Source of the DNA: Alphaproteobacteria bacterium
GTDB lineage: Bacteria; Pseudomonadota; Alphaproteobacteria; Rhodospirillales; Rhodospirillaceae
Assembly: GCA_016869315.1 (NCBI GenBank)
Contig: VGEM01000001.1
Coordinates: 4,340-68,339 of the forward strand
Length of the DNA: 64,000 nucleotides
Direction: 5' to 3'
In this document: in pieces, positions 2,299 through 63,278 of the stretch
Position numbering within the stretch: position 1 is the first letter of the stretch
How the letters are laid out: each line of letters starts with the position of its first letter
Made by a program: the position numbers and the translations under genes
The notes under the pieces: generated by a model
Seen by the model: only the letters and a program-made list of their open reading frames with translations
What the model was told of the DNA's origin: nothing
The model's database searches: none

Positions 2299-2796
2299 AT
2301 GGGAAAAGTCTCACGGCGCGGGATGGTGGTTGGAGCGATCGCGGCGGGCACATCTGCCCAGGCCCATGGGTTTCATGCCAGCTTCACGGTGATCGAGCAC
2401 AATGCCCGCGCCGGAACCTTGGAACTGTTACACCGGCTTTTCATTCAGGACCTTGAGGTCGTTCTCACCGCGCGGCGCGGCGAAGCCATGACGATCGACG
2501 ATTCGCCTCTCGTCCAGAAGTTCATCGAGGAATATCTGCTCGATGTCTTTTCCTTGGCGGATTCGAACGGCAAGCGACTCCGGCCCGACTGGGTCGGGAT
2601 GAAGCTGCAGATCGATACGCTGTTCGTCTATCGCGAGCTCAAGGTTCCGGCCGCGCCCGCGGCGCTGATCGTGAGCGATCAGACCCTGACCGAAGCGCAC
2701 CCTGGCCAGGTCAATTCGGTCAACGTCACCATTGGCGGGCGCACGCAGACCGCCGTGTTCACCATCGACGATCCGCCACGCACCCTGACGTTCTGA
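2299..2796 (+). CDS. hypothetical exported protein (DUF6702-like; family name from memory)
   Basis: 165-aa ORF. N-terminus RRGMVVGAIAAGTSAQAHG looks like a Tat/Sec-type signal. It is followed by HASFTVIEHNARAGTLELLHRLFIQDLE, which resembles the DUF6702 opening motif. Confidence 0.5.
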   Translation: MGKVSRRGMVVGAIAAGTSAQAHGFHASFTVIEHNARAGTLELLHRLFIQDLEVVLTARRGEAMTIDDSPLVQKFIEEYLLDVFSLADSNGKRLRPDWVGMKLQIDTLFVYRELKVPAAPAALIVSDQTLTEAHPGQVNSVNVTIGGRTQTAVFTIDDPPRTLTF

Positions 2797-30011: not shown

Positions 30012-31226
30012 ATGCTTATGAAAAACCTGTTTGTGATCTGTCTCGCATTGGTGATCGGCCTTGGCGTTGCCGAGGCCCAGCAGAACCCCTTCGGCGCGCG
30101 AAAAGCCCCTGACGAAGCCGCGGCCGCGCCGGCGAGCGACGATCAGAAACCGGCGAGCCCCTTCGGCGGCCGCGTGACCGCGCCGACCGAGGACAAACCT
30201 CTCGTCACGCTGCCGGCGCCGGTGCGTGCCGTGTTCCGCTGGGTCGCCGACCAGCAGCGCCTGCTCAACGACTTCATGGGCGACAAGCTGCGCGAGTCAA
30301 AAGGCGATGGCGGTTTCATTGCGGCGATGGTGCTGCTGGGCGCAAGCTTTCTCTACGGCGTGCTCCACGCCGCCGGGCCCGGTCACGGCAAATTGGTCGT
30401 GGCGTCCTACTTCACCGCCCGACAGGCGCCGCTCACCACGGGGATCCTGATGGGCACAATCATTGCCGCGACCCAGGCCGTGGTCGCGATTCTTGCCGTC
30501 GGCATTCTCGCCGTTCTCGTTGGCCGACGGCAAATGGATGTCATGAACGACGTCAACGTGCTTGAGATCGTGAGTTACGGCATCATCTTCGTGATCGGCG
30601 GCTACATGACATATTGCGCGATCAACGGGCGCGAGGCCTTCGGCCACGATCACGGCCCGCCCGCCAGCACGTTCGATGAACCGCCACCGCCTGCGGCAAA
30701 ACACGAACCCGCGCATCATCACGATTATGGTGGTCATGATCATCATGCCCATGATCATCATGCGCATGACCATCACGTGCATGACCATCATGGGCCCGCG
30801 CATCATGGTCACGATCACCATGGCCACGACCATGCCCATGACGGCACGGTCGCGCGCCAAACCTGGCTTGCTCGCACTGGACGCGCATGGTTTGGGCGTT
30901 ACGGTGAAGTGCTCGGCGTTGGGATCGTCTCAGGAATCAGGCCCTGCAGCGGCTCGATTCTCGTGTTGCTGTTCGCGCTGGCCAACGGCGTTTTCATGCT
31001 GGGCGTCGCCGCTGCCTTCCTGATCGCGCTCGGCGTCATGATCGCCATTTCCGTGCTCGGAATCGGCACCATCGCGCTGCGCCGCGCGGTTGCCGGCAGC
31101 GACGACAACCCGTCACCGGCACGAGCCCTGCTCGGGCGCGCACTTGCGATCGGCGGCTCGGCGGCCGTTATGGTTCTGGGCGGCCTCTTGATGGGTGGCG
31201 CGCTCGAGGCCTACGGCGTGATTTGA
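30012..31226 (+). CDS. NicO-family nickel/cobalt transporter permease with His-rich loop
   Basis: 404-aa membrane ORF with the HAAGPGHGK signature. The central loop is HEPAHHHDYGGHDHHAHDHHAHDHHVHDHHGPAHHGHDHHGHDHAHD. A second conserved half contains SGIRPCSGS. Confidence 0.8.
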   Translation: MLMKNLFVICLALVIGLGVAEAQQNPFGARKAPDEAAAAPASDDQKPASPFGGRVTAPTEDKPLVTLPAPVRAVFRWVADQQRLLNDFMGDKLRESKGDGGFIAAMVLLGASFLYGVLHAAGPGHGKLVVASYFTARQAPLTTGILMGTIIAATQAVVAILAVGILAVLVGRRQMDVMNDVNVLEIVSYGIIFVIGGYMTYCAINGREAFGHDHGPPASTFDEPPPPAAKHEPAHHHDYGGHDHHAHDHHAHDHHVHDHHGPAHHGHDHHGHDHAHDGTVARQTWLARTGRAWFGRYGEVLGVGIVSGIRPCSGSILVLLFALANGVFMLGVAAAFLIALGVMIAISVLGIGTIALRRAVAGSDDNPSPARALLGRALAIGGSAAVMVLGGLLMGGALEAYGVI

Positions 31227-31232
31227 CGATCG

Positions 31233-31832
31233 TCAGCCGCCGCAGTTCAGCGAGACCACCTGTGGCATGATGAAAGCGCCTTCGTTCGACACTTCGTCGC
31301 CGCTCGAAAACGTCCACTGACATTGGGCGTCGCCTTCGATGGCGATCGGTTTGTCGCCGCCGAGCAAGACGTCGACGTAGATGGTCGGGTCGTAAACAGT
31401 AAACTGAACCTTCGCGGCGGTCGGATCGACCGGCGTGGCGAACACCAGATCGAAGTTGTAAATCAGATCGCCCTTGTCGATGGCGGTCGAAAAGTTCTGG
31501 GCCCGGTCGAACAGCGCTTCTTCGTCGCCGACCCGGACATGAGTGAAAAAGCCGTAGTCCTTCAGGCTGGTGAATACCTGACCGAACATCGCCTGGGTCT
31601 CGTCGGCATCGAAGGTGCCGTCCTGATTCTTGTCGAAATCCCCGGTCAGGACCTGGCTGAAGAACGTATCGAACTGCCAGCGCATGCCGATCCGGGTGAG
31701 CTTGCCGCCCTCGAATTTGAGGGTGGCGGTGCTGGTGATCCACACATGAGGATGCGCCGAGCCCCCTGCCGGGATCAGCATCGTCGCCGCGGCCAAGGCA
31801 AACGCCTTCAGCGCTGTAGATGGGGGTTTCAT
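31233..31832 (-). CDS. DUF1007 family periplasmic protein (usual partner of the NicO-type permease)
   Basis: Start MKPPSTALKAFALAAATMLIPAGGSA (ATG 31832). The mature N-terminus HPHVWITSTATLKFEGGKL and the FDKNQDGTFDADE block are characteristic of DUF1007. Confidence 0.75.
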   Translation of the reverse strand: MKPPSTALKAFALAAATMLIPAGGSAHPHVWITSTATLKFEGGKLTRIGMRWQFDTFFSQVLTGDFDKNQDGTFDADETQAMFGQVFTSLKDYGFFTHVRVGDEEALFDRAQNFSTAIDKGDLIYNFDLVFATPVDPTAAKVQFTVYDPTIYVDVLLGGDKPIAIEGDAQCQWTFSSGDEVSNEGAFIMPQVVSLNCGG

Positions 31833-31969
31833 GGGCCGCACAATACGGCAACGTTCACGTGCTGGAAATCGACCATGAAAGGCATGATTTTGACCCCCGT
31901 CACATTTGACGGATGGGTTGAAGGTCATTGATAATGCTGTCGGAACCGCCTTGAGAGGGATTCATCGCC

Positions 31970-33172
31970 ATGCCCGGACGCCAGCTCAGCAACGCCAACC
32001 GGAACTCGACCGAACTCGACATGCACTTGCACCTGACCCACGACGACGGTGTGCGCGCGCGTTTCATGATCGATCTCAAGCGCCGCGTAAACCTCGGCAT
32101 GGGCGCCGAAATCCGCGCCCGGTCGGAAAGCACCCATGAGCCGGCGTTGGCCCGCACGTTGGGCCACCCGCTGTCGGTGAAGAGCAAGACGGATCGCAAG
32201 GCGCTGATCGACGTTCTCGAGCAGACCCACGTTTACAAAGCTTGGGCCTGCATGACCTACATCTCGCAGGGCATGATGTGGGAAATCGTCGACGGCGTGC
32301 TCGACCACGACCTCGATCGTCTGCAGAAGGCCTTCGACTTCTATAAGACGAACCCCAACAAGATCGGCTCATTGAAGCTCAATCCCAATCTCAAGGTGCC
32401 GAAGAACATTCTGAACACCGAGATTCACCGTCAGCCCGGAGGCTTTTGCTACGAAACGCATGCCGACGACATCACCTCGGGTGCGCGCTACAACGGCGGC
32501 GGGCTGATGTACTCGGCCGGGAAAGGTCGCAAACCGGTTGCCGGCAAGTCTGGCGGCGATTGGGTCGCCGAGCAGGTACACAAACTGTATCCCGACTTTG
32601 CGCCAAAAAAGATTCTCGAAATCGGCTGCGGCACCGGCCGCAACACGACGGCCTACCCGAAGGCCTATCCTGGCGCCGAGGTCCATGCGATCGATTGCGC
32701 TGCCGGCCTGCTCCGCTTCGCGCATGCCTACGCCGAATGTAACGGCGCGCCGATTCATTTTGCGCAGATGGATGCGACCGCGCTCGATTATCCCGATGAG
32801 TCCTTCGACATGGTCGTGTCGCACATCCTCGGCCACGAGACGACGCAACGCGGCCTGCCGAAGTGGGTGTCCGAATCCTGGCGCGTGCTGAAGCCGGGCG
32901 GCGTCATGTTCCACCTCGACGTCACCACCCAGCCTGGGTTCCTCAAGCTCGCCGATCTGGTGATGAACGACTGGCAAGTGCGCTTCAACGGCGAGCCGTT
33001 CTGGATGGGTTGGGCCGACGCCGACCTGAAAGCGATCATGCGCGACATCGGCATTCCCGAAGATGCGCTGTTCGCCGAGCACATGGGCACCGGCGGACCG
33101 ATGGGCCAATGGTTCTGCCATGGGGCGCGTAAGCCGAAGACCTGGTCGTCGAAGGTCAAGCGGGCCGCCTAA
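31970..33172 (+). CDS. class I SAM-dependent methyltransferase with long N-terminal extension (cytoplasmic paralogue of 41654 and 43255)
   Basis: Canonical motif I ILEIGCGTG (GCGTG at 32624-32638), post-I AIDCA, and FDMVVSHIL. It shares the upstream NP..(E/T)EIH.QPGG block with the two Tat-signal paralogues. No signal peptide. Start uncertain (31970 or 32021). Confidence 0.8.
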   Translation: MPGRQLSNANRNSTELDMHLHLTHDDGVRARFMIDLKRRVNLGMGAEIRARSESTHEPALARTLGHPLSVKSKTDRKALIDVLEQTHVYKAWACMTYISQGMMWEIVDGVLDHDLDRLQKAFDFYKTNPNKIGSLKLNPNLKVPKNILNTEIHRQPGGFCYETHADDITSGARYNGGGLMYSAGKGRKPVAGKSGGDWVAEQVHKLYPDFAPKKILEIGCGTGRNTTAYPKAYPGAEVHAIDCAAGLLRFAHAYAECNGAPIHFAQMDATALDYPDESFDMVVSHILGHETTQRGLPKWVSESWRVLKPGGVMFHLDVTTQPGFLKLADLVMNDWQVRFNGEPFWMGWADADLKAIMRDIGIPEDALFAEHMGTGGPMGQWFCHGARKPKTWSSKVKRAA

Positions 33173-36527: not shown

Positions 36528-38021
36528 ATGAAAGCGTTTATGCGTCTGCTGATCGGTTTGGTTATCCTCGTGGTCATCGCCGGCGCCGGGGGATACGGCG
36601 CCTTCTGGTGGATGAACCGCATTCCACCGCAGCTCAAGGAACCGAACTACCTCACCTATTATAAGACCCAGGACACGACGCCGACCGGCAAGGTCGCGGT
36701 CTTTGTCTCTGGCCTGATCATGCCCGAAAGATTCAGGCTCGAAGACTTCTACAATCTTGCTCTTTAGCCGGCGCAGTACATCCCCTGGCCGATCCGCAAC
36801 TTAGCGATGGCCGACCGCGGCGTGCTGCTGATGGATACCGAGAAGTATTACGAAACCAAGCCTTTCACGCCGACCAGTCTGATGGACGCCTACGGCAACA
36901 CCAACGATGTCGATGGCGTGCCCTATGTGCGGAAATTCCATCGCGGCGAATTGACCTGGGTTGCGCCCGATCCGACCCAGCATGCCGATCACGGTTACTT
37001 TTTGCTGACCGCGCGCAAAGGTGGCATGCCGAACATCGCGCAGAAACTCGCGACCAAGGCCCGCATCTTCTATTACGGCAAGGGCAAGGGTTTCAAAGAT
37101 GGTCGCGTGCCGCACGAAGCCGGCGAGTGGGCGATTATCAAGGGCGCCATGGACAAGCTTGAGGCCAAGTACGGTCCGATCCCCTATCGCTTCGTCAGCG
37201 CCGAGACTCCGGCGATAGCCGAGACATATCTTCGCGAACTCCTCGACGGTGGCGCGGAAACCATCGTGTTCGCGCCGCCGCGGCCGATCTACTCCCAACA
37301 CGAGGAGTTCAACGGCTCGATCAAACACACCATGCATTACATCCATGATTGGGAAAAAGAGCATGGCAAGAAGATCAAAGTGATCATCACGCCGCAGCTT
37401 GGCGACATTCCCGTGATGAAGGAGGCTTTCCTCGTCATGCTGCGCGAACGGCTCGCCACCTTCCCCGAGAACGCCAAGGTCAAGGTCGTCGTTTCGGTCC
37501 GCGGCATGGCCTGGGACAAAGTGCCGCACGAGGGCTGGATCGAGTTGGCGCCACCGTATCGCGACGGCATGGTTCAGGCCGTCAAGGATGAACTCACCAA
37601 ATGGAAATTCGCCAAGACCGAGGTGGTGCAGGCGCAGGACCATTTCGCTGATCCTCACAACAATCCCGACGGCAAGTACCTCTCGACCAACAAGGGATTC
37701 CTCGACGGCGTCAAGGACGGCTTCGATTACGTGGTCAATCTGCCGATCGAGTTCTTCGCCGAGAACACCGACACCATGTTCAGTCACGCCATGTTCAACT
37801 TCGAAGGTTTCCCGGGCTACGACGTCTACGAGACGATCGATTATTCCGACTGGTCGGTGCCCTACACCCGCACCTTCAAGATCGAGAACACCGAGCTGAT
37901 CTATAACGGCCTGCCCGTCGGCAAATACAACGCGCCGATCATCGAGGCTTACGTGCAGGCGATCGATTCGGTGTTGTCGAAGAGCATGAAGCCGAAGAGC
38001 CAGGTGGCGACGGCGGAGTGA
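36528..38021 (+). pseudogene. membrane-anchored ferrochelatase-fold (class II chelatase-like) protein interrupted by one in-frame TAG (otherwise two ORFs: 36528-36767 and 36807-38021)
   Basis: Both ORFs share one frame and are separated only by TAG at 36765-36767. The N-part has a TM helix (LLIGLVILVVIAGAGGYGAFWW). The remainder aligns by eye to B. subtilis HemH blocks: GAETIVFAPPRPIYSQ vs EAVSIVLAPHFSTFS, VVVSVRGMAW vs MLIVSAHSLP, and NLPIEFFAENTDTMFS vs YVPVGFVADHLEVLYD. Confidence 0.6.
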
Positions 38022-38163
38022 AGCGTCAGGGTTCGGCGCCTGTCGGCCCGAGCGATTTCGCGACCTGCTGCACGTCGCTATTCTTGCACCGGGAACCCGC
38101 GCACCGCGCCCTTATCCTGAAATGACGCGGGACTCCGCTCACCGGCACTGGCATGATCGCGTC

Positions 38164-39882
38164 ATGACAATCAAACGACTCTTCGTCCCCATCACTGGCG
38201 CCCAATTGATGGTTCGCCGGGTCGGCGAAGGCCCGCCCGTGGTGTTGATGCACCCGTCGCCGCAGTCGAGCACATTCTCGATTCCGATGGCGAACAAGCT
38301 GGCCGCCGCCGGTTTCACGGCCATTGCCGTCGACACGCCCGGCTACGGCCTGTCCGATCCTCTCGTCGGCGGATACCCGGCAGGTCTCGATCGCGACCAC
38401 GGCCTGGATCCATTTCTGCCGCCGCTGGTGCAACTGCTTGATTCACTCGGGATCGCCAAAGCCGCGTTCTATGGCAATGCCACCGGCGCCGAGGTGGCGC
38501 ACATCTTTGCGTACAATCATCCCGACCGCGCGGCCGTCGCCATGATGGACACCGCCGGGCACAACCCGGACGACGAAGTCGATAAAATCACCGCCGGTTA
38601 TTTTCCCGACGTGACGCCAAGGCGCGACGGCGGCCATCTGCTTACCTACTGGGACATGTGCCACTTCCTCGGCATCTACGCGCCCTGGCAGTTCACCGAT
38701 CACGAACACCGTTTGCAGGTCGATGCCCCCAACCCCGAGCGCACCCAGCGCGTGATGCTGGAATATATGCGCGCCGGCCCCGCCTACCCGACCGCCTATC
38801 GTCCGGCTTTTTATACCGCCAAGGGCCACTTGATCTCGCGGCTCAAGGTGCCGGCCACTCTCACCCGCTGGGAAGGGAAACCAAATCTCGCCGAGATCGA
38901 TGCGTTGATCGCCTACGGCCTGCCGCTCAACATCACCGTGCTTCGCCCCGGTCCCAGCATGGATCAGCGGTTCGATGCCAGCGTCGACTATCTGGTGAAG
39001 AACTATCTCAAGACCGGAACACCCGCGCCGAAACATCCCGACCAAATCGATCGCACGGCCGCACGCCTGCAGAAAGTGTTCATCGATGTGCCCGGCGGCC
39101 AGGTGTTCGCGAGAGTCTGCATGGCGGGACGCGGGCGGCCGATACTCGCCCTGCACGATCCCGCCGGATCGTCGCGGCGGGTCGAATCATTGCTGACGCC
39201 TTACGTCGGCGACCGGCCTGTCATCGCGCTCGATCATCCCTCGAGCGGCGAGTCAGACAAGCTCCTGACCCGCGAGCAGATTTCGACCGAAGCCTACGCC
39301 AAGGCCTCGTGGGTCGCGCTTGATTCGCTAGGCATTAAAGAGATCGACATCATCGGGCGCTACGCCGGCGGCCAGGTCGGTTTGGAAATGGCGCAGCAGC
39401 GGCAGGGCGCGGTGAAGCATATCGTCCACGCCGGGGTGCAGATCTTCACCGATGGCGAGCGGCCCGACTTGCTCGCCAACTACACGCCCTCGATCGCGCC
39501 GACATGGGACGGCCGTCATTTGATGACCGCCTGGGGCATGATGCGCGACATGGCGCTGTTCTGGCCGTGGTACAACCGGACCAAATCGGGGATCGTTCGC
39601 CGTGACGCCGCCATTGACGGCAACACCGTCCATGCCCGGGTCGAGGATTTGCTCAAGATCGGCGACGCGTACCAAAACGCCTACGCCGCCTCGTTCAATT
39701 ACCCGATGGCCGAGCGCCTGAAGGCGAGCACGACCCCCAACCTGATGGCCGACCTGCCGGGCGCCGCAAGCTATTCCCGTGTCGCCATGGCCAAGGCGGC
39801 GGCCCCCAACGTGCAAACGGCCGATTTGCCCGACGACATCCGCGCCTGGCGCGGCGTGTTCGACAAATTCTTCGCGAGCTGA
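38164..39882 (+). CDS. double alpha/beta-hydrolase-fold protein lacking canonical nucleophiles (paralogue 1)
   Basis: Preferred start MTIKRLFVPITGAQL. Domain 1 has VVLMHPSPQSS, AVDTPGYGLSD and elbow G-N-A-T-G (38473-38487; Ala at the nucleophile position). Domain 2 has ILALHDPAGSS and elbow G-R-Y-A-G (Tyr at the nucleophile position). Confidence 0.7.
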   Translation: MTIKRLFVPITGAQLMVRRVGEGPPVVLMHPSPQSSTFSIPMANKLAAAGFTAIAVDTPGYGLSDPLVGGYPAGLDRDHGLDPFLPPLVQLLDSLGIAKAAFYGNATGAEVAHIFAYNHPDRAAVAMMDTAGHNPDDEVDKITAGYFPDVTPRRDGGHLLTYWDMCHFLGIYAPWQFTDHEHRLQVDAPNPERTQRVMLEYMRAGPAYPTAYRPAFYTAKGHLISRLKVPATLTRWEGKPNLAEIDALIAYGLPLNITVLRPGPSMDQRFDASVDYLVKNYLKTGTPAPKHPDQIDRTAARLQKVFIDVPGGQVFARVCMAGRGRPILALHDPAGSSRRVESLLTPYVGDRPVIALDHPSSGESDKLLTREQISTEAYAKASWVALDSLGIKEIDIIGRYAGGQVGLEMAQQRQGAVKHIVHAGVQIFTDGERPDLLANYTPSIAPTWDGRHLMTAWGMMRDMALFWPWYNRTKSGIVRRDAAIDGNTVHARVEDLLKIGDAYQNAYAASFNYPMAERLKASTTPNLMADLPGAASYSRVAMAKAAAPNVQTADLPDDIRAWRGVFDKFFAS

Positions 39883-39884
39883 CC

Positions 39885-41576
39885 ATGCCGGCACCGATCA
39901 CGAAGCATTTTCTGCCGCTGGCCGACGGTCGCCAAATTCACTACCGCCGCGCCGGTTCGGGCCCGCCGCTGATCATCATGCACCCCTCGCCCAATTCGTC
40001 GGCGAGCATGATCAACGCCATCAATGCTTTCTCCGATGCCTTTACGTGCCTCGCCATCGATACGCCGGGCTACGGCATTTCCGACGATTTCGTCGACGAC
40101 CCCGACATGCTGTGGGGCTACGCCGACGCGCTCGCCAAATTTCTCGACGGGCTCGGCATCGAAAAATCCTTCGTCTATGGCGCCGCCACCGGCGCGCAGA
40201 TCGGCATTCAGTTTGCGCGCAAATATCCCGCGCGGATTCACGCGTTTCTGCTGGACGGTAATGGCGATTTCACCGGCGACCTCGACATCGCCCCTGGCTA
40301 TTTCCAGGACGTGACGCCGGTCCGCGACGGTTCGCACCTGATTCGCATCTGGGACATGTGCCGCCAGCTTGGCGTGTTCTTTCCCTGGCAGTCGATGCGT
40401 GGCGCCGACCGTGTCAATACCGATGTCGGCAGCCCCGAAGGCATTCAGCGCGCCGTCAACGACTATCTGCGTGCCGGGCCGGGCTACAAGAAGGGCTACT
40501 ACGAGGCGATGCGGGTCGAGAAGTGGGAGTACACCCGCCAGGTCACCGTGCCGGTATTCATGGCGCGGAACGAATCGAGCGTGCTGTTCAAGTATACCCA
40601 GGCGCTGATCGATAAAGGCCTGCCCGTCAATTTCACCGTTCTCAACTGCGATTCGCGGACGCGCTATCCGATGCAGCTGACGGCGCTCAAGGGCTGGATT
40701 GGCGATCGCACGTTTCCGGCACCGAAGCCGTCACCGGCCGACACGTCGGCGACATCGCGCATGCAAAACATGTACGTCAAAGCCCGCGGCGGTTTCCTCA
40801 GGGCGCGCGCCAACCTGACCGGCAAAGGCCGGCCGATCGTTGCGTTGCATGATCCGGCCGGATCGTCGCTGCTGGTCGAGCCCATGCTGGTCCCATGGAT
40901 CGGCAAGCGTCCGGTGATCGCGCTCGATCTGCCCGGCAATGGCGAGTCCGACAACGTCATCGAGCCGGCCAACATCACCTCGGCGGCTTACGCCGCGATT
41001 GTGAACGACGCGCTGGCTGGCGCCGGCATCGACCAGTCCGATGTCATCGGGCGCTATTCGGGCGGTCCCGTCGCGATGGAGATGAGTTTCGCAAAACCGT
41101 CGCTGGTCAAACATCTGGCGCTTTCGGGGATTGGAGCCTACGAAGCTGCCGAGCAGAAGACGCTCCTCGACAATTACACGCCATCAGTCGCGCCCGTGTG
41201 GGACGGCAGCCATCTTGCGACCGCATGGGCGATGATGCGCGACCAGGGTCTCTACTGGCCGTGGTTCAATCGAACCCGCGGCGGGATTGTGCCGTCGGCC
41301 AACGGCATCGACGTTGCGACCATTCATCTTCGCGTCACCGAACTTCTCAAGGTCGGCGACCAATATCAAAAAGCCTATGCCGCCATGTGGACCTACCCGA
41401 TGCGCGAGCGCCTCCCCAAGGTGGCGGCGCCGACACTGGTCTGCATGCCGGCGTGGGACCCGATCTACGCCAAGATGGCCGAATGCAAAGCCTTCGCGCC
41501 GAAAGTCGGCACCGCCGATTTGCCCGCGAAAATGGCCGATTGGCATGCGGTCATTGACCCCTTCTTCGCGACCTGA
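39885..41576 (+). CDS. double alpha/beta-hydrolase-fold protein lacking canonical nucleophiles (paralogue 2)
   Basis: Starts 2 bp after paralogue 1. It has LIIMHPSPNSS, AIDTPGYGISD and elbow G-A-A-T-G (40179-40193). Domain 2 has IVALHDPAGSS and G-R-Y-S-G. By eye it is about 45-50 percent identical to paralogue 1. Confidence 0.7.
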   Translation: MPAPITKHFLPLADGRQIHYRRAGSGPPLIIMHPSPNSSASMINAINAFSDAFTCLAIDTPGYGISDDFVDDPDMLWGYADALAKFLDGLGIEKSFVYGAATGAQIGIQFARKYPARIHAFLLDGNGDFTGDLDIAPGYFQDVTPVRDGSHLIRIWDMCRQLGVFFPWQSMRGADRVNTDVGSPEGIQRAVNDYLRAGPGYKKGYYEAMRVEKWEYTRQVTVPVFMARNESSVLFKYTQALIDKGLPVNFTVLNCDSRTRYPMQLTALKGWIGDRTFPAPKPSPADTSATSRMQNMYVKARGGFLRARANLTGKGRPIVALHDPAGSSLLVEPMLVPWIGKRPVIALDLPGNGESDNVIEPANITSAAYAAIVNDALAGAGIDQSDVIGRYSGGPVAMEMSFAKPSLVKHLALSGIGAYEAAEQKTLLDNYTPSVAPVWDGSHLATAWAMMRDQGLYWPWFNRTRGGIVPSANGIDVATIHLRVTELLKVGDQYQKAYAAMWTYPMRERLPKVAAPTLVCMPAWDPIYAKMAECKAFAPKVGTADLPAKMADWHAVIDPFFAT

Positions 41577-41653
41577 CGCGTTCACGGCGCGAACGGATTG
41601 GCAGCTCGAAATCGTGCTAAGCTGGCGTCTCTGTCCGGCCTGGGGAGGCGTTC

Positions 41654-42862
41654 ATGAGCAAGGTGTTCAGTCGTCGATCGATCATGAATGCCATCGGCGG
41701 GACCGCCGCCGCTGCTGGCTTTTTCAGACCCGGCACAGCCGTCGCCAAACTGAAGAAAGATATCGAGCCCCGAGGCAGCAACGGCACCCTTGAACGATTG
41801 CCGACCCTCGATCTCGACAGCTACGACGATTTCAGTACGGCGACGCGGATCTGGATCAACGGCGATCTGACGCGCGCCTCGGAACAACGCGCCGCCGAGA
41901 TTCTGAAATCCCACGGCGTCAAACCGACCGACAAAGTTTCCTTCGAGGACACCGTGCGTTGGGTAGCCGACGATCCGATCATCGCCCTGCGCAGCGCCAG
42001 CTGGCAGCGGTTGCAATGGCATATGTGGCAAGAGCTGCGCCGCGAATTCCACGGCAACTTCGACGCCTACATGTCGGAACTGGAAGCAGCCGACGCTTCG
42101 GGCCCGGGCGTGCTCGAACTCAACCCCGGCATCGAGCCCGAGTACACCAAGCACGAAATCCACATGCAGCCGGGCGGCTACACCGGCGACCCTTTCGCAG
42201 GGCACCTGTATCACTACGGCACCAACAATTTTTACAACGGCACCAATCATCAGGATCAGCGCCACACCGCGCTGGCCGGCGCGGTTCCGGTGCCGGCCGA
42301 CGGCAAAGTGCGCCGCATCCTCGATATGGGCTGCAGCTGCGGCCAGCAGGTGACGGCGCTGAAGCAACGCTTCCCCGATGCCGAAGTGTGGGGCATCGAT
42401 ATCGGCGCGCCGATGGTGCGCTACGCCCACATGCGGGCGGTCGATCTTGGCATCGACGTCAACTTCCGCCACGCGCTGGCCGAGCAAACCGGGTTCCCCG
42501 ACGGCCACTTCGACATGGTCACCTCATATATCCTGCACCACGAGGTGACCGCGGCGGCGAGCCTGCAAATCGTCAAGGAAGCGCATCGCATTTTGCGGCC
42601 TGGCGGCGTGTTCTATCCGGTCGACATATATCCATCGCCGACCAACCGCTCCGACCACGGCACCGCCATTCGCCATGTTCGCGATTGGATGACCCATCGC
42701 TGGAATCATGAGCGGTGGTGGAATGACTATCTCACCACCGATTACATCGGCGAGATCGCGCGGGTTGGATTCACGTTGCAAGACGCCGCCCGGGAAGGCG
42801 TTGGCTATCCCATGGTTGCCCCCGGAGGGCCAAGAAATCCCCTTGGCATCAAGCCGGTCTAA
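41654..42862 (+). CDS. Tat-signal-bearing class I methyltransferase-fold protein with degenerate motif I
   Basis: N-terminus MSKVFSRRSIMNAIGGTAAAAGFFRPGTAVA|KLKKD has an RR motif, an h-region and an AxA site. The MTase core is RILDMGCSCGQQ (GCSCG at 42329-42343), GIDIGAPMV and FDMVTSYILHH. RBS-like GGGGAGG lies upstream. Confidence 0.7.
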   Translation: MSKVFSRRSIMNAIGGTAAAAGFFRPGTAVAKLKKDIEPRGSNGTLERLPTLDLDSYDDFSTATRIWINGDLTRASEQRAAEILKSHGVKPTDKVSFEDTVRWVADDPIIALRSASWQRLQWHMWQELRREFHGNFDAYMSELEAADASGPGVLELNPGIEPEYTKHEIHMQPGGYTGDPFAGHLYHYGTNNFYNGTNHQDQRHTALAGAVPVPADGKVRRILDMGCSCGQQVTALKQRFPDAEVWGIDIGAPMVRYAHMRAVDLGIDVNFRHALAEQTGFPDGHFDMVTSYILHHEVTAAASLQIVKEAHRILRPGGVFYPVDIYPSPTNRSDHGTAIRHVRDWMTHRWNHERWWNDYLTTDYIGEIARVGFTLQDAAREGVGYPMVAPGGPRNPLGIKPV

Positions 42863-42901
42863 TCACGTTTTTGTTGGTTCATCACGCAACAGGAGGAAGG
42901 C

Positions 42902-43243
42902 ATGGCAGAAACCAAAGGCAATCGGCCGACGTACGCGACCGATTTTATCACGACCGACATCGAGAAAGTGACGTTCTTCGGCAACGTTCACATCGACAAT
43001 ATGATGACGACGCTGCTCGCCATGGGTAACGAGCTCTGGGTTCAGCGGAAGCGTCAGCACATTCTGGAAGCGCTGCTGGCCGAAAAGGGCGTCAAGCCCG
43101 AGGCCATCGAGAAGTACGTGGCGACGCCGGCGCAGGAGCAGGCCTGGGCCAAGGAGCGCGACGTCCTGGTCGCCCGGCTGTGGAGCCACCACGACAAGAA
43201 CACCGGCGAATACAATTTCGCCTCCGACTGGAACGGAAAGTAA
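42902..43243 (+). CDS. hypothetical 113-aa cytoplasmic protein between the two Tat-signal paralogues
   Basis: ORF with an AGGAGGAAGG RBS-like element upstream. No signal peptide or known motif recognised (MAETKGNRPTYATDFITTDIEKVTFFGNVHIDNMM...). Confidence 0.5.
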   Translation: MAETKGNRPTYATDFITTDIEKVTFFGNVHIDNMMTTLLAMGNELWVQRKRQHILEALLAEKGVKPEAIEKYVATPAQEQAWAKERDVLVARLWSHHDKNTGEYNFASDWNGK

Positions 43244-43254
43244 GGAGCACGACC

Positions 43255-44520
43255 ATGAGCCAACTGTTCAATCGACGCTCGATGATGGGTATGGCCGGCG
43301 GCGCGCTGAGCGCGGCTTCGGTCCTCAGCTCGAGCCACGCCCACGCCAAGCTCAAGAACGATTTCGAACCGCGCGGCGGCGACGGCATCTGGGAACGCCT
43401 GCCCTCGCTCAATCTCGAGGCCTACGACGAAATGTCGACCTCGACCCGGAAATGGGTCAATGGCGCCTTGGCCCGCGCCGCGCAGCAGCGCGCCAACGAG
43501 CTGATGGTCAAGAACGGCATGAAGCCGGACCAGCAGATCAGCTTCGAGGACGCATCCAAACTGTTGTCGAACGACCCGATCATCGCCATGCGCGCATCAA
43601 GCTGGCAGCGGCTGCAGTGGCACATGTGGCAAGAACTGAAGCGCGAGTTCTACGACAACTACGACGCCTACATGTCGGAAATGGAAGCGACCGATAAAAC
43701 CGGCCCCGGCACGCTCGAGCTCAATCCCGGCATCGAGCCCGAGTACACCAAGCACGAGATCCACATGCAGCCGGGCGGCTACACCGGCGATCCGTTCGCC
43801 GGACACCTTTATCTCTATGGCACCGCCAACTTCTACGTCGGCCAGAACTATCAGGACCAGGGCCACGCGGCGCTCGCCGCGGCGGTGCCGGTGCCGGCCG
43901 ACGGAAAAGTGCGGCGCATTCTCGATGCCGGCTGCAGCTGCGGTCAACAGGTGGTGGCGTTGAAGCGCCGGTTCCCCGATGCCGAGGTATGGGGCGTCGA
44001 CATTGGCGCGCCGATGGTGCGATACGCGCATATGCGCGCCGTCGACAACGGCGTCGATGTCAATTTCCGTCACGCTTTGGCCGAAAAAACCGGCTTCCCC
44101 GACGGCTACTTCGACATCGTCACCAGCTACATCCTGCATCACGAAGTGACCGAGCAGGCGACCTACGAGATCATCCGCGAGACCTCGCGGGTCCTGCGTC
44201 CGGGCGGCGTTTACTTCCCGGTCGACGTCTACACGATGCCGTCGCGCCGCGTGCTCGACGGCACGCCGATGCGCCGCATCCAGGACTGGATCACGTCGCG
44301 CTGGAACCACGAGCGGTGGTGGTACGACTACCAGCGCTCCGACTTCCTCGGCGAAATGCAGCGCTCGGGCTTCGCGCTCAACATGGATGGTCCCGAGGCC
44401 TCGGCCTATGCCGTCAATCTGTCGCAGGCCCGCGCCAGACAAACCTCGGGTCGCCCGCAGGCTTTGGGCGACATGTCGGGTCAGGGTGGCCAAAAGAACA
44501 TCATGGGCACGAAGATCTGA
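43255..44520 (+). CDS. Tat-signal-bearing class I methyltransferase-fold protein with degenerate motif I (tandem paralogue)
   Basis: Start MSQLFNRRSMMGMAGGALSAASVLSSSHAHA|KLKND with AAGGAG 8 nt upstream. The core is about 70-80 percent identical by eye to 41654-42862. RILDAGCSCGQQ has GCSCG at 43930-43944. Confidence 0.7.
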   Translation: MSQLFNRRSMMGMAGGALSAASVLSSSHAHAKLKNDFEPRGGDGIWERLPSLNLEAYDEMSTSTRKWVNGALARAAQQRANELMVKNGMKPDQQISFEDASKLLSNDPIIAMRASSWQRLQWHMWQELKREFYDNYDAYMSEMEATDKTGPGTLELNPGIEPEYTKHEIHMQPGGYTGDPFAGHLYLYGTANFYVGQNYQDQGHAALAAAVPVPADGKVRRILDAGCSCGQQVVALKRRFPDAEVWGVDIGAPMVRYAHMRAVDNGVDVNFRHALAEKTGFPDGYFDIVTSYILHHEVTEQATYEIIRETSRVLRPGGVYFPVDVYTMPSRRVLDGTPMRRIQDWITSRWNHERWWYDYQRSDFLGEMQRSGFALNMDGPEASAYAVNLSQARARQTSGRPQALGDMSGQGGQKNIMGTKI

Positions 44521-44541
44521 TTCTTCGCCTCTTCAGGATCA

Positions 44542-44575
44542 GGGCCTCACCTGCGGGTGGGGCCCTTTTTCTTTT
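44542..44575 (+). terminator. rho-independent terminator of the 35.8-44.5 kb cluster
   Basis: GGGCCTCACC-TGCG-GGTGGGGCCC (9 of 10 bp pair), followed by TTTTTCTTTT. It lies 21 bp after the stop at 44520. Confidence 0.75.
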
Positions 44576-44694
44576 GATTTTCTTGCGTTTCCCGCGGGTT
44601 TCGGCGCCTTGACGGGCGCCCGATCGAACGCCACATAAGTGGAGCCCACGCCGCTGCCGGGTGGGCCATTTTGTCTCGCTCGTCGAGGGGACCC

Positions 44695-45408: not shown

Positions 45409-45852
45409 AACCCGTTTTCATTGTCACTGACCGATCCACTAACTCAGGGTCACCCCGGACTTGATCCCTTAGGCGCTAAGAAAAGCATGACTTTTGCAGT
45501 ATCCCGAAGATAATCACACCATACGCGTCGTCGACGGCGCGATCCGCGGCAAGACGGATCAGTTCGTCTACAAGTTCCGGAAGCCGAAGTAAGCGGCCCT
45601 GACGGACGAGGACCCTTAACCGCCGGATAACGGCGTCACCCCGGCCGCCGAGCTGCCTTCGCGCGTTGCGCTTCGGCGGACGCAGACTGAAACCCACCGA
45701 GGCCAATTGGCGTAGGCGGGGCCGGGGTCCCTGGGGAGGCGTACACCGACGTCACGACTTTGACGCCCGTTCTGGCTGCTGCGGGCCCACCCAGGACTGC
45801 ACCGATTTCACAGATGCGCGCCGATTTGGTAAACCATGGCGGGCGCACCAAG

Positions 45853-45928
45853 TCCCTGTAGCTCAGCTGGATAGAGCACCAGATTCCTAATCTGGGGGTC
45901 GTGAGTTCAAATCTCGCCGGGGACGCCA
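45853..45928 (+). tRNA. tRNA-Arg (anticodon CCT)
   Basis: 76-nt cloverleaf. Acceptor stem GTCCCTG/CGGGGAC (one G-U pair). D arm GCTC...GAGC. Anticodon stem CCAGA/TCTGG with loop TTCCTAA. T arm GTGAG-TTCAAAT-CTCGC. Discriminator G and an encoded CCA. Confidence 0.95.
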
Positions 45929-46252: not shown

Positions 46253-46276
46253 ATATAGGGTATATCCCCATCCTAT
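46253..46276. promoter_or_regulatory. candidate DmeR/RcnR-type operator
   Basis: In ATATAGGGTATATCCCCATCCTAT, ATAGG and CCTAT are inverted repeats flanking a TA-rich/C-tract core. This style is reported for RcnR/DmeR operators. It overlaps the ATG of the repressor gene. Confidence 0.4.
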
Positions 46277-46550
46277 GGTTCACCTCCGTGATACGAAAGA
46301 CGAGATTCTCGCGCGCATTCGGCGTATCGCCGGGCAGATCGCCGCACTCGAACGGGCCGTACAAAGCGGGGCCGAATGCAACGAGACGCTCCATCAGGTC
46401 GCCGGCATTCGCGGCGCCGTGAGCGGGCTGATGAGCGAATTGATCGAAGATCATATGGCCAATCACGTGGCCGCTCCGGGCCTTACGAACAAGAAACGGG
46501 CTGCCGCGGCTGAAGAGCTGTGTACGTTGTTACGCCGTCACGGCAGGTAG
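46275..46550 (+). CDS. dmeR: metal-sensing transcriptional repressor, CsoR/RcnR/FrmR (DUF156) family, DmeR-like
   Basis: 91-aa ORF reading ILARIRRIAGQIAALERAVQSGAECNETLHQVAGIRGAVSGLMSELIEDHMANH. It has the W-X-Y-Z-type ligand positions typical of the RcnR class. It sits directly upstream of a CDF gene. Confidence 0.8.
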   Translation: MVHLRDTKDEILARIRRIAGQIAALERAVQSGAECNETLHQVAGIRGAVSGLMSELIEDHMANHVAAPGLTNKKRAAAAEELCTLLRRHGR

Positions 46551-46554
46551 AGTA

Positions 46555-47487
46555 ATGGCCGTTTTTAGAGAACTCACCGAGCCCGCCCACCTGCACGACT
46601 ATCTCGGCGCGGCCCACGATACGAACGCGCGCCGGACACGGTGGGTCGTCGCATTAACCGCCGTCATGATGGTCGGAGAGATCGTTGCAGGTTACCTCAC
46701 GGGCTCCATGGCGCTTCTGGCGGACGGGTTCCATATGGCTACGCACGCTGGTGCCCTCACCGTCGCAGCGTTCGCCTATGCCTATGCGAAACGGTATGCC
46801 CATGACCCGCGCTTCACCTTCGGTACCGGCAAAGTCGGTGAGCTTGCCGGTTTTGCTTCCGCCTTTGCGCTGGCTTTGATCGCGATAGGCATCGGCGTCG
46901 TGTCAGCGATCCGGTTGGCCCGGCCGATCCCCGTGAATTTCAGCGATGCCACCCTGATTGCTGTACTCGGCTTGATAGTCAATCTTGTCAGCGCCGCTTT
47001 GCTCGCTGGTGGGGGTCACCATCACGGCCACGCTCATCATAAACACCATGATTGGGCCGGACATGACCATGGCGGTCACGGACATGACAATAATCTGCGC
47101 GCCGCCTACGTTCATGTTCTCGCCGACGCGCTCACCTCCGTACTCGCGATAATCGGGTTGCTGGCGGGGCGATACCTTGGCTGGGTTTGGCTCGATCCAT
47201 TGATGGGTATGGTCGCCGCCGCCGTCATCGGGCGCTGGTCTTGGGGCCTCATGGGCGATACCGCCCGCGTGCTGCTGGACACCGCCGATCCGCACTTATT
47301 CGAAGAAGTGCTGGAGTGCGTGGAGAAGCCCGGCGATGCCCGCGTTGTTGATCTCCATGTTTGGCAGGTTGGGCCTCAAGCTCATGCTGCTAGTGTTGTC
47401 GTGCGCGGGCCAATTGATGCAGAAGCCGTTCGCGACCGCCTTAAGCCCGTTCATGAAATCAAGCATCTGACCGCCGAGGTGGCTTGA
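46555..47487 (+). CDS. dmeF: cation diffusion facilitator family Co/Ni (Zn/Cd) efflux transporter, DmeF-like
   Basis: 310-aa ORF with 6 TM segments and the LLADGFHMATHAGAL and HVLADALTSV motifs. It has the His-rich loop GGGHHHGHAHHKHHDWAGHDHGGHGHD and a C-terminal cytoplasmic domain. Confidence 0.85.
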   Translation: MAVFRELTEPAHLHDYLGAAHDTNARRTRWVVALTAVMMVGEIVAGYLTGSMALLADGFHMATHAGALTVAAFAYAYAKRYAHDPRFTFGTGKVGELAGFASAFALALIAIGIGVVSAIRLARPIPVNFSDATLIAVLGLIVNLVSAALLAGGGHHHGHAHHKHHDWAGHDHGGHGHDNNLRAAYVHVLADALTSVLAIIGLLAGRYLGWVWLDPLMGMVAAAVIGRWSWGLMGDTARVLLDTADPHLFEEVLECVEKPGDARVVDLHVWQVGPQAHAASVVVRGPIDAEAVRDRLKPVHEIKHLTAEVA

Positions 47488-62261: not shown

Positions 62262-63278
62262 GTGAGCGTGAAAATTCATCGTCGAGCGTTTCACGGCTTT
62301 GCGGCGGGCGCGGGTGTTGCCGCGCTGTCAGGCCAAACGTGGGCCGCCACCAGTAAGTTCGCCATGATCACGCCGATCCAGCATCTGATCGGTTATGCCC
62401 CCTCGATGAATGCCGAAGTCGGCGGCCACTTTCGCCGGTACGGCCTCGAGGGCGACATCGTCGGCGGCGCCAATGCGCCGATGGCAGTGCAGCAAACGGT
62501 GGTGAAGCGCGTCGATGTCATGCGTGGCGCCGGCACCGACGTGGCGACCGCCGTCGCCAATCAAGGTGCGCCGCTGCGGGCGATTGGCACGATCTATCAG
62601 GCGAGCTCGTTCATTGTCATCAGTCAGGCATCGCGGCCGGTGCGTGCTGCGCGCGATTTTAACGGCATGACGGTCGGCGTCCCGGGGCGGAAAAGCGGGT
62701 CCGAACAGGCGCTCGACCTGCTGCTGCTGGGCGCCGGGCTCGATCTGGATATCGCCAAGCGCGAGTCCGTCGGCAACAGCCTCGGCGCCTGGGGTCTGAT
62801 GCGAGCGGGGCGGATCGATGCCGCGGTCTTGAGCGTCAGCGCTGCCGTGCAAATTCAAGACGCGGGCGAAGATCCGGTGCTGTGGCCGGTCGAGGAGTCG
62901 TATAAGGCGCCGGGCCAGGTCTATGCCATGCACCGCGATCGCCTGGCCGCCGAGCCTGAGTTCCCTGTGCGGTTTCTGAGAGCGATCCGGGATTCCATGA
63001 CCGAGCTGCGTGCGTCACTGGCCAACGGCAGCGCGCTCGACATCGTGAAGCGTATGGCCGAGCGTTATCCCATCGTCGGAAAGGACAACCCGCGCTTTCT
63101 GGTCAAGGCCATGACCGAGGAAATCAAGCTGTGGCTGTCCGATGGCGAGGAGAACCAACTTCGCAACATGCCCGAGCGCTGGAGCAGCATGGTGGCGAGC
63201 ATGGTCAAGGCGGGCATCATCAAACCGGTTGATGCGACATCACTGTACACAAACGAATATGTCGACCAGCTCGGCTAA
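62262..63278 (+). CDS. ABC transporter substrate-binding protein (NitT/TauT, NMT1/THI5-like)
   Basis: 338-aa ORF with a Tat-like signal (HRRAFHGFAAGAGVAALSGQTWA). It is followed by a matching ATPase gene. Confidence 0.7.
   Translation: MSVKIHRRAFHGFAAGAGVAALSGQTWAATSKFAMITPIQHLIGYAPSMNAEVGGHFRRYGLEGDIVGGANAPMAVQQTVVKRVDVMRGAGTDVATAVANQGAPLRAIGTIYQASSFIVISQASRPVRAARDFNGMTVGVPGRKSGSEQALDLLLLGAGLDLDIAKRESVGNSLGAWGLMRAGRIDAAVLSVSAAVQIQDAGEDPVLWPVEESYKAPGQVYAMHRDRLAAEPEFPVRFLRAIRDSMTELRASLANGSALDIVKRMAERYPIVGKDNPRFLVKAMTEEIKLWLSDGEENQLRNMPERWSSMVASMVKAGIIKPVDATSLYTNEYVDQLG

What the first reader, a model, noticed from the sequence alone, without database searches (positions are those of the whole stretch)
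41654..44520. Twin-arginine signal peptides on SAM-methyltransferase-fold proteins with a degenerate SAM-binding loop
Both tandem paralogues begin with an RR motif (SRRSIM, NRRSMM), a hydrophobic h-region and an AxA site (AVA|K, AHA|K). This predicts Tat export.

Class I methyltransferases depend on SAM, which is a cytoplasmic cofactor, so an exported methyltransferase is paradoxical. In both exported copies the glycine-rich loop is G-C-S-C-G (42329-42343, 43930-43944). The signal-less paralogue at 31970 keeps the canonical G-C-G-T-G.

This suggests the exported copies are either exported with a pre-bound ligand or repurposed to bind something else.
Basis: partly seen in the sequence, partly recalled or inferred. 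Interest (0 to 1): 0.7.

Follow-up and report, generated by a model that had tools for sequence, protein, structure and literature searches.

The report
Tat-signal class I methyltransferase family
Two neighbouring genes encode ordinary-looking SAM-type methyltransferases that carry a conserved twin-arginine export signal, and they belong to a large, unstudied family in uncultured aquatic Alphaproteobacteria; this raises the testable question of how a SAM-dependent enzyme could work outside the cytoplasm.

Summary
The sequence observation is correct. ORF A (41654-42862) and ORF B (true start 43255, to 44520) both have good ribosome-binding sites. Both begin with an RR leader ending in AVA|K or AHA|K, and both carry G-C-S-C-G in methyltransferase motif I. 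The leader is a family trait. In 219 relatives of the exported clade, 213 have an invariant RR in a Tat-like context, and the other six are N-terminally truncated or have miscalled starts. The h-region is rich in Ala, Gly and Ser, and 199 of 213 have a strict AxA. A leaderless sister group of about 360 aa starts exactly at the predicted mature N-terminus.

The "degenerate SAM loop" reading fails. Ser at the middle motif I position occurs in 68% of leader-bearing proteins (25% keep Gly). It also occurs in 16 of 23 leaderless sister proteins. All other SAM-contact positions are 99-100% conserved.

So these look like catalytically intact small-molecule methyltransferases exported folded by Tat. 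The family is expanded to 10-17 or more copies per genome in uncultured Rhodospirillaceae. How they would get SAM is unresolved. I infer pre-loading in the cytoplasm, as NADP is pre-loaded in glucose-fructose oxidoreductase. I found no published description. Substrate and function remain unknown.

The parts
41642..41648 (+). Ribosome-binding site of ORF A (GGGGAGG)
   Evidence: Read directly. It lies 5 nt upstream of ATG 41654.
41654..41746 (+). Predicted Tat signal peptide of A, residues 1-31: MSKVFSRRSIMNAIGGTAAAAGFFRPGTAVA, with predicted cleavage before K32
   Evidence: Sequence read. The AF2 model has pLDDT below 50 for residues 1-32. There is a weak TIGR02811 hit at E 0.09. The Arg in the c-region (FFRPG) is typical of Tat leaders.
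41747..42862 (+). Mature methyltransferase A: an N-terminal segment D-I-E-P-R-G...LERLP, a helical domain of about 150 aa, then the class I Rossmann-type core (residues about 215-325)
   Evidence: Pfam Methyltransf_25 at E 1.3e-20. AF2 gives pLDDT 82 and pTM 0.83. Foldseek finds only small-molecule class I methyltransferases.
42329..42343 (+). Motif I of A, G-C-S-C-G (G226, S228, G230)
42891..42896 (+). Ribosome-binding site (AGGAGG) of the small ORF
   Evidence: Read directly.
42902..43243 (+). Conserved 113-aa protein with no signal peptide and no Pfam match, encoded directly upstream of B. It may be a cytoplasmic partner or chaperone of the exported methyltransferase.
   Evidence: Homologues of 52-84% identity were found. 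They always lie directly upstream of an exported-clade methyltransferase in L087-L090 and in P0284. The AF2 model is unusable, at pLDDT 46.
43242..43247 (+). Ribosome-binding site of ORF B (AAGGAG)
   Evidence: Read directly. It lies 7 nt upstream of ATG 43255.
43255..43347 (+). Predicted Tat signal peptide of B, residues 1-31: MSQLFNRRSMMGMAGGALSAASVLSSSHAHA, with predicted cleavage before K32
43348..44520 (+). Mature methyltransferase B, 63% identical to A, with a C-terminal insertion of about 20 aa
43930..43944 (+). Motif I of B, G-C-S-C-G
44541..44576 (+). Intrinsic-terminator-like hairpin (11 pairs, 8 G-C) followed by a T run, ending the A-small-B transcription unit
39885..41576 (+). Double alpha/beta-hydrolase with no signal peptide, immediately upstream. 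This is context and not necessarily part of the system.
   Evidence: Pfam hits. Synteny shows that A-small-B lies between this gene and HSP20.
31970..33172 (+). Leaderless paralogue C of the cytoplasmic clade, 23% identical to A, with motif I G-C-G-T-G

Best explanation
A and B are real, co-transcribed genes for small-molecule class I methyltransferase-fold enzymes with an intact SAM pocket. Each carries a cleavable twin-arginine signal peptide of about 31 residues.

They belong to a coherent clade in which the leader was added to an enzyme that is otherwise competent in the cytoplasm. Leaderless sister proteins start exactly at the mature N-terminus. The clade then expanded massively in uncultured aquatic Rhodospirillaceae.

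Most likely mechanism: the protein folds in the cytoplasm and binds its nucleotide-type cofactor there (SAM or SAH, possibly with a divalent metal at the His-His site after strand 4). The Tat system then exports it as a folded holo-protein. In the periplasm it acts on small organic substrates, alongside other exported catabolic enzymes encoded nearby.

Shown:
- gene structure;
- fold;
- conservation of the SAM-contact residues;
- family-wide Tat-type leader;
- modularity of the leader;
- paralogue expansion.

Inferred:
- actual export;
- cofactor pre-loading;
- catalysis in the periplasm;
- substrate class.
For: - **Starts and operon.** RBS motifs precede both ATGs. A terminator follows B.
- **Fold.** Pfam Methyltransf_25 and Methyltransf_11 hit at E about 1e-20. 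The AF2 model has pLDDT 82 with a disordered 1-32. Foldseek returns only SAM/SAH-bound small-molecule methyltransferases.
- **Leader.** RR is present in 213 of 219 exported-clade proteins; the other six are N-terminally truncated or have miscalled starts. The context is Tat-like, with a weakly hydrophobic h-region and strict AxA in 199 of 213. Tat-signal HMMs are the only recurrent hits among 74 leaders.
- **Controls.** None of 120 cytoplasmic-clade proteins has a leader. A leaderless sister group of consistent 360-aa length begins at the mature N-terminus.
- **SAM site.** G226, G230, D249 and D287 are 99-100% conserved. H296, E297 and E353 are invariant in both clades. D249 aligns to CysG Asp77, and H295/H296 align to the CysG metal ligands His122/His123 (PMC11408123 read).
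- **Context in related genomes.** There are tandem arrays of up to 6 copies. Neighbours include Tat-leader FAD_binding_2 flavoproteins, Tat-leader VOC proteins and alpha/beta-hydrolases, and Sec-signal SDR, metallo-beta-lactamase and redoxin proteins.
- **Precedent.** Glucose-fructose oxidoreductase and Caulobacter AAOR carry Tat signals (PMC4628093). Their tightly bound NADP is from my own knowledge.
Against: - No dedicated predictor (SignalP 6, TatP) and no experiment was available.
- The two window leaders themselves barely register on curated Tat HMMs.
- The n-region is very short, with a median of 3 residues before RR.
- A stoichiometrically pre-loaded SAM would allow only one turnover unless it is regenerated or not consumed. 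No regeneration partner or SAM exporter was identified.
- Genomic context is weakly conserved. In this window the A-small-B unit looks like an insertion between an alpha/beta-hydrolase gene and HSP20, so the neighbours say little about function.
- The presence of tatABC in this genome was not checked.
Confidence: 0.6

Rival explanations
1. This is a conventional multi-turnover periplasmic methyltransferase. The protein is exported by Tat as above, but SAM is supplied to the periplasm and SAH removed by a transporter. This would resemble Golgi-lumen pectin methyltransferases, which depend on SAM transporters (my own knowledge).
For: The SAM site is intact and identical to that of the cytoplasmic relatives. 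Many paralogues per genome suggest real catalytic enzymes with diversified substrates.
Against: No transporter gene is consistently linked to the family in 80 or more loci. SAM in the periplasm would leak through porins. No bacterial SAM exporter to the periplasm is known to me, and none turned up in the literature searches.
Confidence: 0.12
2. This is a repurposed fold. The exported proteins no longer transfer methyl groups. They would use the Rossmann pocket to bind another ligand, or use SAM as a non-consumed cofactor, as in the methyltransferase-fold enzymes LepI, SpnF and RdmB (my own knowledge).
For: It would remove the cofactor-supply problem. The exported clade has clade-specific residues near the pocket: S228, Q231, E277, Y188 and W345. 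It also has an extra invariant N-terminal segment, D-x-E-P-R-G...LERLP.
Against: Ser228 and the N-terminal segment are shared with the leaderless sister group. All canonical SAM-contact and putative catalytic residues are invariant in both exported and cytoplasmic clades, which argues for the same chemistry.
Confidence: 0.15
3. The proteins are not exported. The RR-containing N-terminus would be a cytoplasmic or membrane-tethering peptide, or a non-functional relic, and the enzymes would work in the cytoplasm.
For: Curated Tat HMMs hit only about 15% of leaders, and hit the window copies only marginally. The n-region is very short. The upstream alpha/beta-hydrolases in the window lack signals.
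Against: RR is invariant in 213 of 213 leaders while the h-region sequence is free to vary. AxA is conserved. The spacing to the mature N-terminus is consistent, with a median of 31 residues from RR. Sister proteins lack precisely this segment. A relic would not be maintained across hundreds of paralogues.
Confidence: 0.1

Closest known systems
CysG / BelI carboxyl O-methyltransferases (cystargolide and belactosin pathways; PDB 9FCD, 9FCE; PMC11408123)
   Same: These are among the best solved-structure sequence matches to the core (E 6e-10; Foldseek). The ribose-binding Asp is shared (CysG Asp77 aligns to D249 here). The His-His pair after strand 4 that binds Ca2+ in CysG (His122/His123) aligns to H295/H296 here. 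CysG also uses an N-terminal Arg-bearing lid. Its methyl-ester product is later removed by a hydrolase, which recalls the alpha/beta-hydrolase neighbours seen here.
   Different: Identity is only about 25% over about 125 residues. CysG is 215-230 aa and cytoplasmic, with no leader and no helical domain of about 150 aa. The third metal ligand (Asp191) could not be aligned. H295 is His in only 52% of the exported clade. The substrates here are unknown.
Glucose-fructose oxidoreductase (Zymomonas) and Caulobacter aldose-aldose oxidoreductase
   Same: Both are cytoplasmic-type Rossmann-fold enzymes that use a nucleotide cofactor, carry a Tat signal and work in the periplasm (PMC4628093). The cofactor is bound before export and recycled in place (my own knowledge). 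This is the logical model for a Tat-exported SAM enzyme.
   Different: The fold family (Gfo/Idh/MocA) and the cofactor (NADP) differ. NADP is regenerated redox-wise by a ping-pong reaction. No equivalent way of regenerating SAM from SAH in the periplasm is known.
Generic Methyltransf_25 / Methyltransf_11 (UbiE-like) class I SAM methyltransferases, including the leaderless clade of paralogue C
   Same: They share the fold, motifs I, post-I, III and IV, and the same invariant H170, H296, E297 and E353.
   Different: They have no signal peptide (0 of 120). They lack the D-x-E-P-R-G...LERLP segment. Motif I is G-C-G-T-G.
Secreted or lumenal methyltransferases of eukaryotes (secreted METTL9, bioRxiv 10.64898/2025.12.23.696137; Golgi pectin methyltransferases, my own knowledge)
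   Same: These are class I methyltransferases that act outside the cytosol, which raises the same cofactor-supply question.
   Different: They use the eukaryotic secretory pathway and are unrelated at subfamily level. SAM supply there is by Golgi transporters or from plasma.

Membership tests
Class I (Rossmann-fold) SAM-dependent methyltransferase | Seven-stranded Rossmann-like methyltransferase fold | tested here: met
   Pfam Methyltransf_25, _11, _31 and _12 all score above gathering. The AF2 model has pLDDT 82. The top 50 Foldseek PDB hits are all class I methyltransferases.
Class I (Rossmann-fold) SAM-dependent methyltransferase | Motif I glycine-rich loop (D/E-x-G-x-G-x-G) | tested here: met
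   A and B have D-x-G-C-S-C-G. The outer glycines G226 and G230 are 99-100% conserved. The middle residue is Ser68/Gly25/Ala5/Thr3 (%) in the exported clade. A non-Gly middle residue occurs in active methyltransferases (my own knowledge).
Class I (Rossmann-fold) SAM-dependent methyltransferase | Acidic residue at the end of strand 2 that binds the ribose hydroxyls, and the Asp of motif IV | tested here: met
   D249 is 99% and D287 100% conserved in both clades. D249 aligns to CysG Asp77, the ribose ligand.
Class I (Rossmann-fold) SAM-dependent methyltransferase | Binds SAM and transfers its methyl group | not testable with these tools
   This needs ITC, thermal shift, native mass spectrometry and activity assays.
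Tat (twin-arginine) substrates | N-terminal Z-R-R-x-phi-phi motif with an invariant Arg pair | tested here: met
   A has SRRSIM and B has NRRSMM. RR is present in 213 of 213 leaders, with 96% hydrophobic residues at +3 and 97% at +4 counted from the first Arg.
Tat (twin-arginine) substrates | Moderately hydrophobic h-region and an AxA signal-peptidase site | tested here: met
   The h-region is A29 G15 S12 L12 T9 (%). The mean maximum 10-residue Kyte-Doolittle window is 1.67. Strict AxA occurs in 199 of 213. A ends AVA|K and B ends AHA|K.
Tat (twin-arginine) substrates | Recognition by curated Tat-signal models (TIGR01409, PF10518) | tested here: inconclusive
   The window copies get no hit to either model. 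A gets only TIGR02811 at E 0.09. Across 74 family leaders, Tat models are the only recurrent hits (12, 8 and 10 members), but most leaders fall below detection.
Tat (twin-arginine) substrates | Tat-dependent translocation and leader cleavage in vivo; tatABC present in the genome | not testable with these tools
   No experiment was possible. tatABC was not looked for outside the window. SignalP and TatP were not available.
CysG/BelI-type metal-dependent carboxyl O-methyltransferases | His-His-Asp Ca2+-binding motif | tested here: inconclusive
   H295-H296 align to His122-His123. H296 is invariant, but H295 is His in only 52%. The Asp191 equivalent could not be aligned.

The most novel reading that the evidence does not exclude
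This would be the first family of bacterial SAM-cofactor enzymes that work in the periplasm. The methyltransferase would be loaded with SAM (and perhaps a metal) in the cytoplasm and exported folded by Tat. It would then perform methyl-transfer chemistry outside the cytoplasm, either with a non-exchangeable SAM/SAH that is re-methylated in place by an external methyl donor, or with SAM as a non-consumed cofactor. The family would have diversified into dozens of paralogues per genome to process dissolved organic matter in uncultured aquatic Rhodospirillaceae. The conserved 113-aa neighbour would act as its cytoplasmic escort.
Probability: 0.25. Interest if true: 0.85.

Novelty: new variant of a known kind. 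Interest (0 to 1): 0.62.

Why it matters
SAM-dependent methylation is treated as a strictly cytoplasmic chemistry in bacteria. A large, conserved clade of Tat-leader methyltransferases with an intact SAM site implies one of three things:
- an unrecognised route for SAM chemistry in the periplasm;
- a holo-enzyme export logic like that of NADP-bound glucose-fructose oxidoreductase;
- a new non-transferase use of the fold.

The family is abundant and heavily duplicated in uncultured marine and lake Alphaproteobacteria. In those genomes it sits next to other exported catabolic enzymes, so it may bear on how these bacteria transform dissolved organic matter. The question can be tested directly with leader-reporter fusions and cofactor analysis of the mature protein.

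Tried and rejected
- **Degenerate loop linked to export.** Rejected by column statistics and by the leaderless Ser-bearing sister clade.
- **Downstream start codons.** Rejected by the RBS positions and by protein-level conservation of the leader.
- **GTG 43180 as the start of B.** Rejected. It overlaps the conserved small ORF in another frame and has no RBS.
- **Function from solved structures.** Sequence, profile and Foldseek searches return only generic methyltransferase cores. Nothing matches the N-terminal helical domain.
- **Function from names.** All relatives are annotated only as "class I SAM-dependent methyltransferase" or "UbiE".
- **Function from neighbours.**
  - There is no universally conserved partner.
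  - In the window, A-small-B looks inserted into an otherwise syntenic NicO-DUF1007-C-abH-ABC-...-abH-HSP20 block.
  - A closer relative has small-MT at the same site.
- **Structure of the 113-aa protein.** AF2 gave pLDDT 46, so I ran no fold search.
- **P0284 as a true fusion of the small protein and the methyltransferase.** Rejected as a frameshifted gene call.
- **Riboswitch or other RNA element near the genes.** None found; the only hit is a tRNA-Arg.
- **Exact-sequence lookups.** Lookups of P0001 and P0169 found nothing on record.
- **Literature.** Five searches for periplasmic, Tat-dependent or exported bacterial methyltransferases found nothing relevant.
Full report
**Observation**

The window holds two tandem genes on the + strand.
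- ORF A is 41654-42862, 402 aa. GGGGAGG lies 5 nt upstream of its ATG.
- ORF B is listed from a GTG at 43180. That start overlaps a conserved upstream ORF in another frame. The ATG at 43255 is preceded by AAGGAG at 43242-43247, so B is 43255-44520, 421 aa.
- A starts MSKVFSRRSIMNAIGGTAAAAGFFRPGTAVA|KLKK. B starts MSQLFNRRSMMGMAGGALSAASVLSSSHAHA|KLKN.
- 42329-42343 and 43930-43944 both encode GCSCG. The third paralogue C (31970-33172) has GCGTG and no leader.
- All three match Methyltransf_25 and Methyltransf_11 at E about 1e-18 to 1e-21. A and B are 63% identical. C is 23% identical to A.
- A strong terminator-like hairpin follows B at 44541-44566.

**Is the leader real and is it Tat-type?**

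A homologue search returned 1071 proteins. They are annotated only as "class I SAM-dependent methyltransferase" or "UbiE", and most come from uncultured Alphaproteobacteria, Rhodospirillaceae, Rhodobacteraceae and Povalibacter. Nearly all full-length hits begin with the same kind of leader.

I aligned 341 family members and found two deep clades.
- In the exported clade (n = 219), 213 have an RR leader. The remaining six are N-terminally truncated or have miscalled starts.
- The logo is [FLI][ND]-R-R-[TS]-[LAV]-[FML]-G-A.
- The h-region composition is Ala 29, Gly 15, Ser 12, Leu 12, Thr 9 (%). The mean maximum 10-residue Kyte-Doolittle value is 1.67.
- Strict AxA is present in 199 of 213.
- RR lies a median of 31 residues before the conserved D36.

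Only RR is invariant in the leader, and sequence identity across leaders averages 32%. The mature protein is strongly conserved. That is the signature of a targeting peptide.

When 74 leaders were scanned alone, the only families hit by more than one member were Tat-signal models: TIGR01409 (12), TIGR02811 (8) and PF10518 (10). The two window leaders themselves are weak on these models. This is a caveat.

The AF2 model of A (pLDDT 82, pTM 0.83) leaves residues 1-32 disordered.

**Modularity of the leader**

An exhaustive profile search found 376 family representatives at 50% identity with E at or below 1e-30. Among them is a sister group of proteins of about 360 aa. These begin directly at the mature motif x-D-R-G-x-x-G-x-L-x-R-L-P-x-L-D-x-E-S, with no leader. 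One cluster holds 23 members, with full-length members uniformly 360 aa and a few fragments, from many contigs. Another member comes from a Novosphingobium MAG. They are therefore not gene-calling artefacts.

The more distant cytoplasmic clade, which contains C, has no leader in 0 of 120 proteins and lacks the whole N-terminal segment. The leader is thus a discrete module added to an enzyme that also exists in a cytoplasmic form.

**The SAM loop**

The middle residue distributes as follows.
- Exported clade: Ser 68, Gly 25, Ala 5, Thr 3 (%).
- Distant cytoplasmic clade: Gly 91, Ala 8 (%).
- Leaderless sister group: Ser in 16 of 23.

Ser is therefore a clade trait that does not depend on the leader, and a quarter of leader-bearing proteins keep the canonical Gly.

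The other SAM-contact positions are intact.
- G226 and G230 are 99-100% conserved.
- D249 is 99% conserved. It aligns to CysG Asp77, which binds the ribose.
- E277 is 100% conserved in the exported clade.
- F286-D287 are 100% conserved.
- H170, R256, H296, E297, N351 and E353 are invariant in both clades.

The same chemistry is therefore expected in exported and cytoplasmic members. This argues against repurposing.

**What kind of methyltransferase?**

Sequence, profile and fold searches against solved structures match only the core of about 120 residues of small-molecule methyltransferases: YcgJ, CysG/BelI, LahSB, AtmM, CouO/NovO, Rv2258c and phosphoethanolamine methyltransferases. The N-terminal helical domain of about 150 residues has no match.

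CysG and BelI are carboxyl O-methyltransferases. A His-His-Asp site binds Ca2+, and an N-terminal Arg binds the substrate carboxylate (PMC11408123). Their His122/His123 align to H295/H296 here. This is a lead for a metal-assisted O-methyltransferase. It is not a membership claim.

**Distribution and context**

A scan of one genome per species found at least 564 loci. Single Rhodospirillaceae MAGs contribute 10-17 of the top 80 loci. Arrays reach six copies in 17 kb. The commonest neighbour of a family gene is another family gene. After that come:
- FAD_binding_2 flavoproteins with Tat-like leaders;
- a Sec-signal redoxin;
- alpha/beta-hydrolases, some with Tat-like leaders;
- VOC proteins with Tat-like leaders;
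- Sec-signal SDR and metallo-beta-lactamase proteins.

This points to a rich periplasmic enzyme set in these organisms, but there is no obligatory partner.

In the window, synteny with a relative (L085/L086) runs NicO-DUF1007-C-abH-ABC-498aa-double abH-HSP20. A-small-B sits between the double alpha/beta-hydrolase (39885-41576, 67% identical to the relative's gene) and HSP20. A closer relative (L089) has small-MT at the same place. A therefore looks like a local duplication.

**The small ORF**

The 113-aa ORF (42902-43243) has its own AGGAGG. It has homologues of 52-84% identity. These always lie immediately upstream of an exported-clade methyltransferase, in L087/L088 and L089/L090 and in the frameshifted call P0284. 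It has no signal peptide and no Pfam match. Its AF2 model is unusable. A role as a cytoplasmic escort or chaperone is an attractive guess, but it is untested.

**Mechanism and rivals**

The best-supported reading is export of a folded enzyme by Tat with the SAM pocket intact. How the cofactor is supplied is not shown. I favour pre-loading in the cytoplasm, by analogy with the Tat-exported, cofactor-bearing Gfo/Idh/MocA enzymes (PMC4628093). Their tight NADP binding is from my own knowledge.

The rivals are:
- a periplasmic SAM supply by a transporter;
- a non-transferase use of the fold;
- no export at all.

**Known or new?**

Five full-text searches found no description of a bacterial periplasmic or Tat-exported class I methyltransferase. 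[quoted passage not shown] I therefore rate this as a new variant of a known kind. It is of real interest, but it rests on sequence inference alone.

Noticed in passing
window 42902-43243; L087:8001-8363; L089:3684-4031: A conserved 113-120-aa protein, with no signal and no Pfam match, is always encoded directly upstream of an exported-clade methyltransferase. It may be a partner or chaperone.
   Followed up: partly
window 36528-36767 and 36807-38021: These two adjacent ORFs together match a single 498-aa gene of the syntenic relative L085 (81% and 72% identity). The gene appears split here by a frameshift, a pseudogene or a sequencing error.
   Followed up: partly
window 30012-31928 (NicO 30012-31226 on +, DUF1007 31233-31928 on -), next to paralogue C: A NicO-type metal transporter and a DUF1007 protein lie immediately upstream of the leaderless methyltransferase C. 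The same arrangement is found in L085/L086, so the synteny is conserved and hints at a link to metals.
   Followed up: partly
window 46275-47487: A CsoR/RcnR-type metal-sensing repressor (46275-46550) is followed by a cation-diffusion-facilitator efflux gene (46555-47487).
   Followed up: no
window 45852-45928: A tRNA-Arg (CCT) lies about 1.3 kb downstream of the A-small-B unit, which looks inserted relative to a syntenic relative. HSP20 and DUF1150 genes lie in between.
   Followed up: no
window 38122-39882 and 39885-41576: Two tandem double alpha/beta-hydrolase genes, 44% identical to each other. Only the second has an ortholog in L085. Relatives of this hydrolase family in other loci carry Tat-like leaders.
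   Followed up: partly
L017:4605-5405; L056:14021-14932 (related MAG loci): Short-chain dehydrogenases and metallo-beta-lactamase-fold proteins with Sec-type signal peptides lie next to methyltransferase arrays. An exported SDR poses a similar problem of nucleotide-cofactor supply.
   Followed up: no
window 2299-2796 and 62262-63278: Other proteins in the window have Tat-like RR leaders: a DUF6702 protein (MGKVSRRGMVVGAIAAG...) and an NMT1-like substrate-binding protein (MSVKIHRRAFHGFAAGAG...).
   Followed up: partly
L043:4002-11781; L040; L034: Tandem arrays of five to six exported-clade methyltransferase genes are transcribed divergently from a FAD_binding_2 flavoprotein with a Tat-like leader.
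   Followed up: partly
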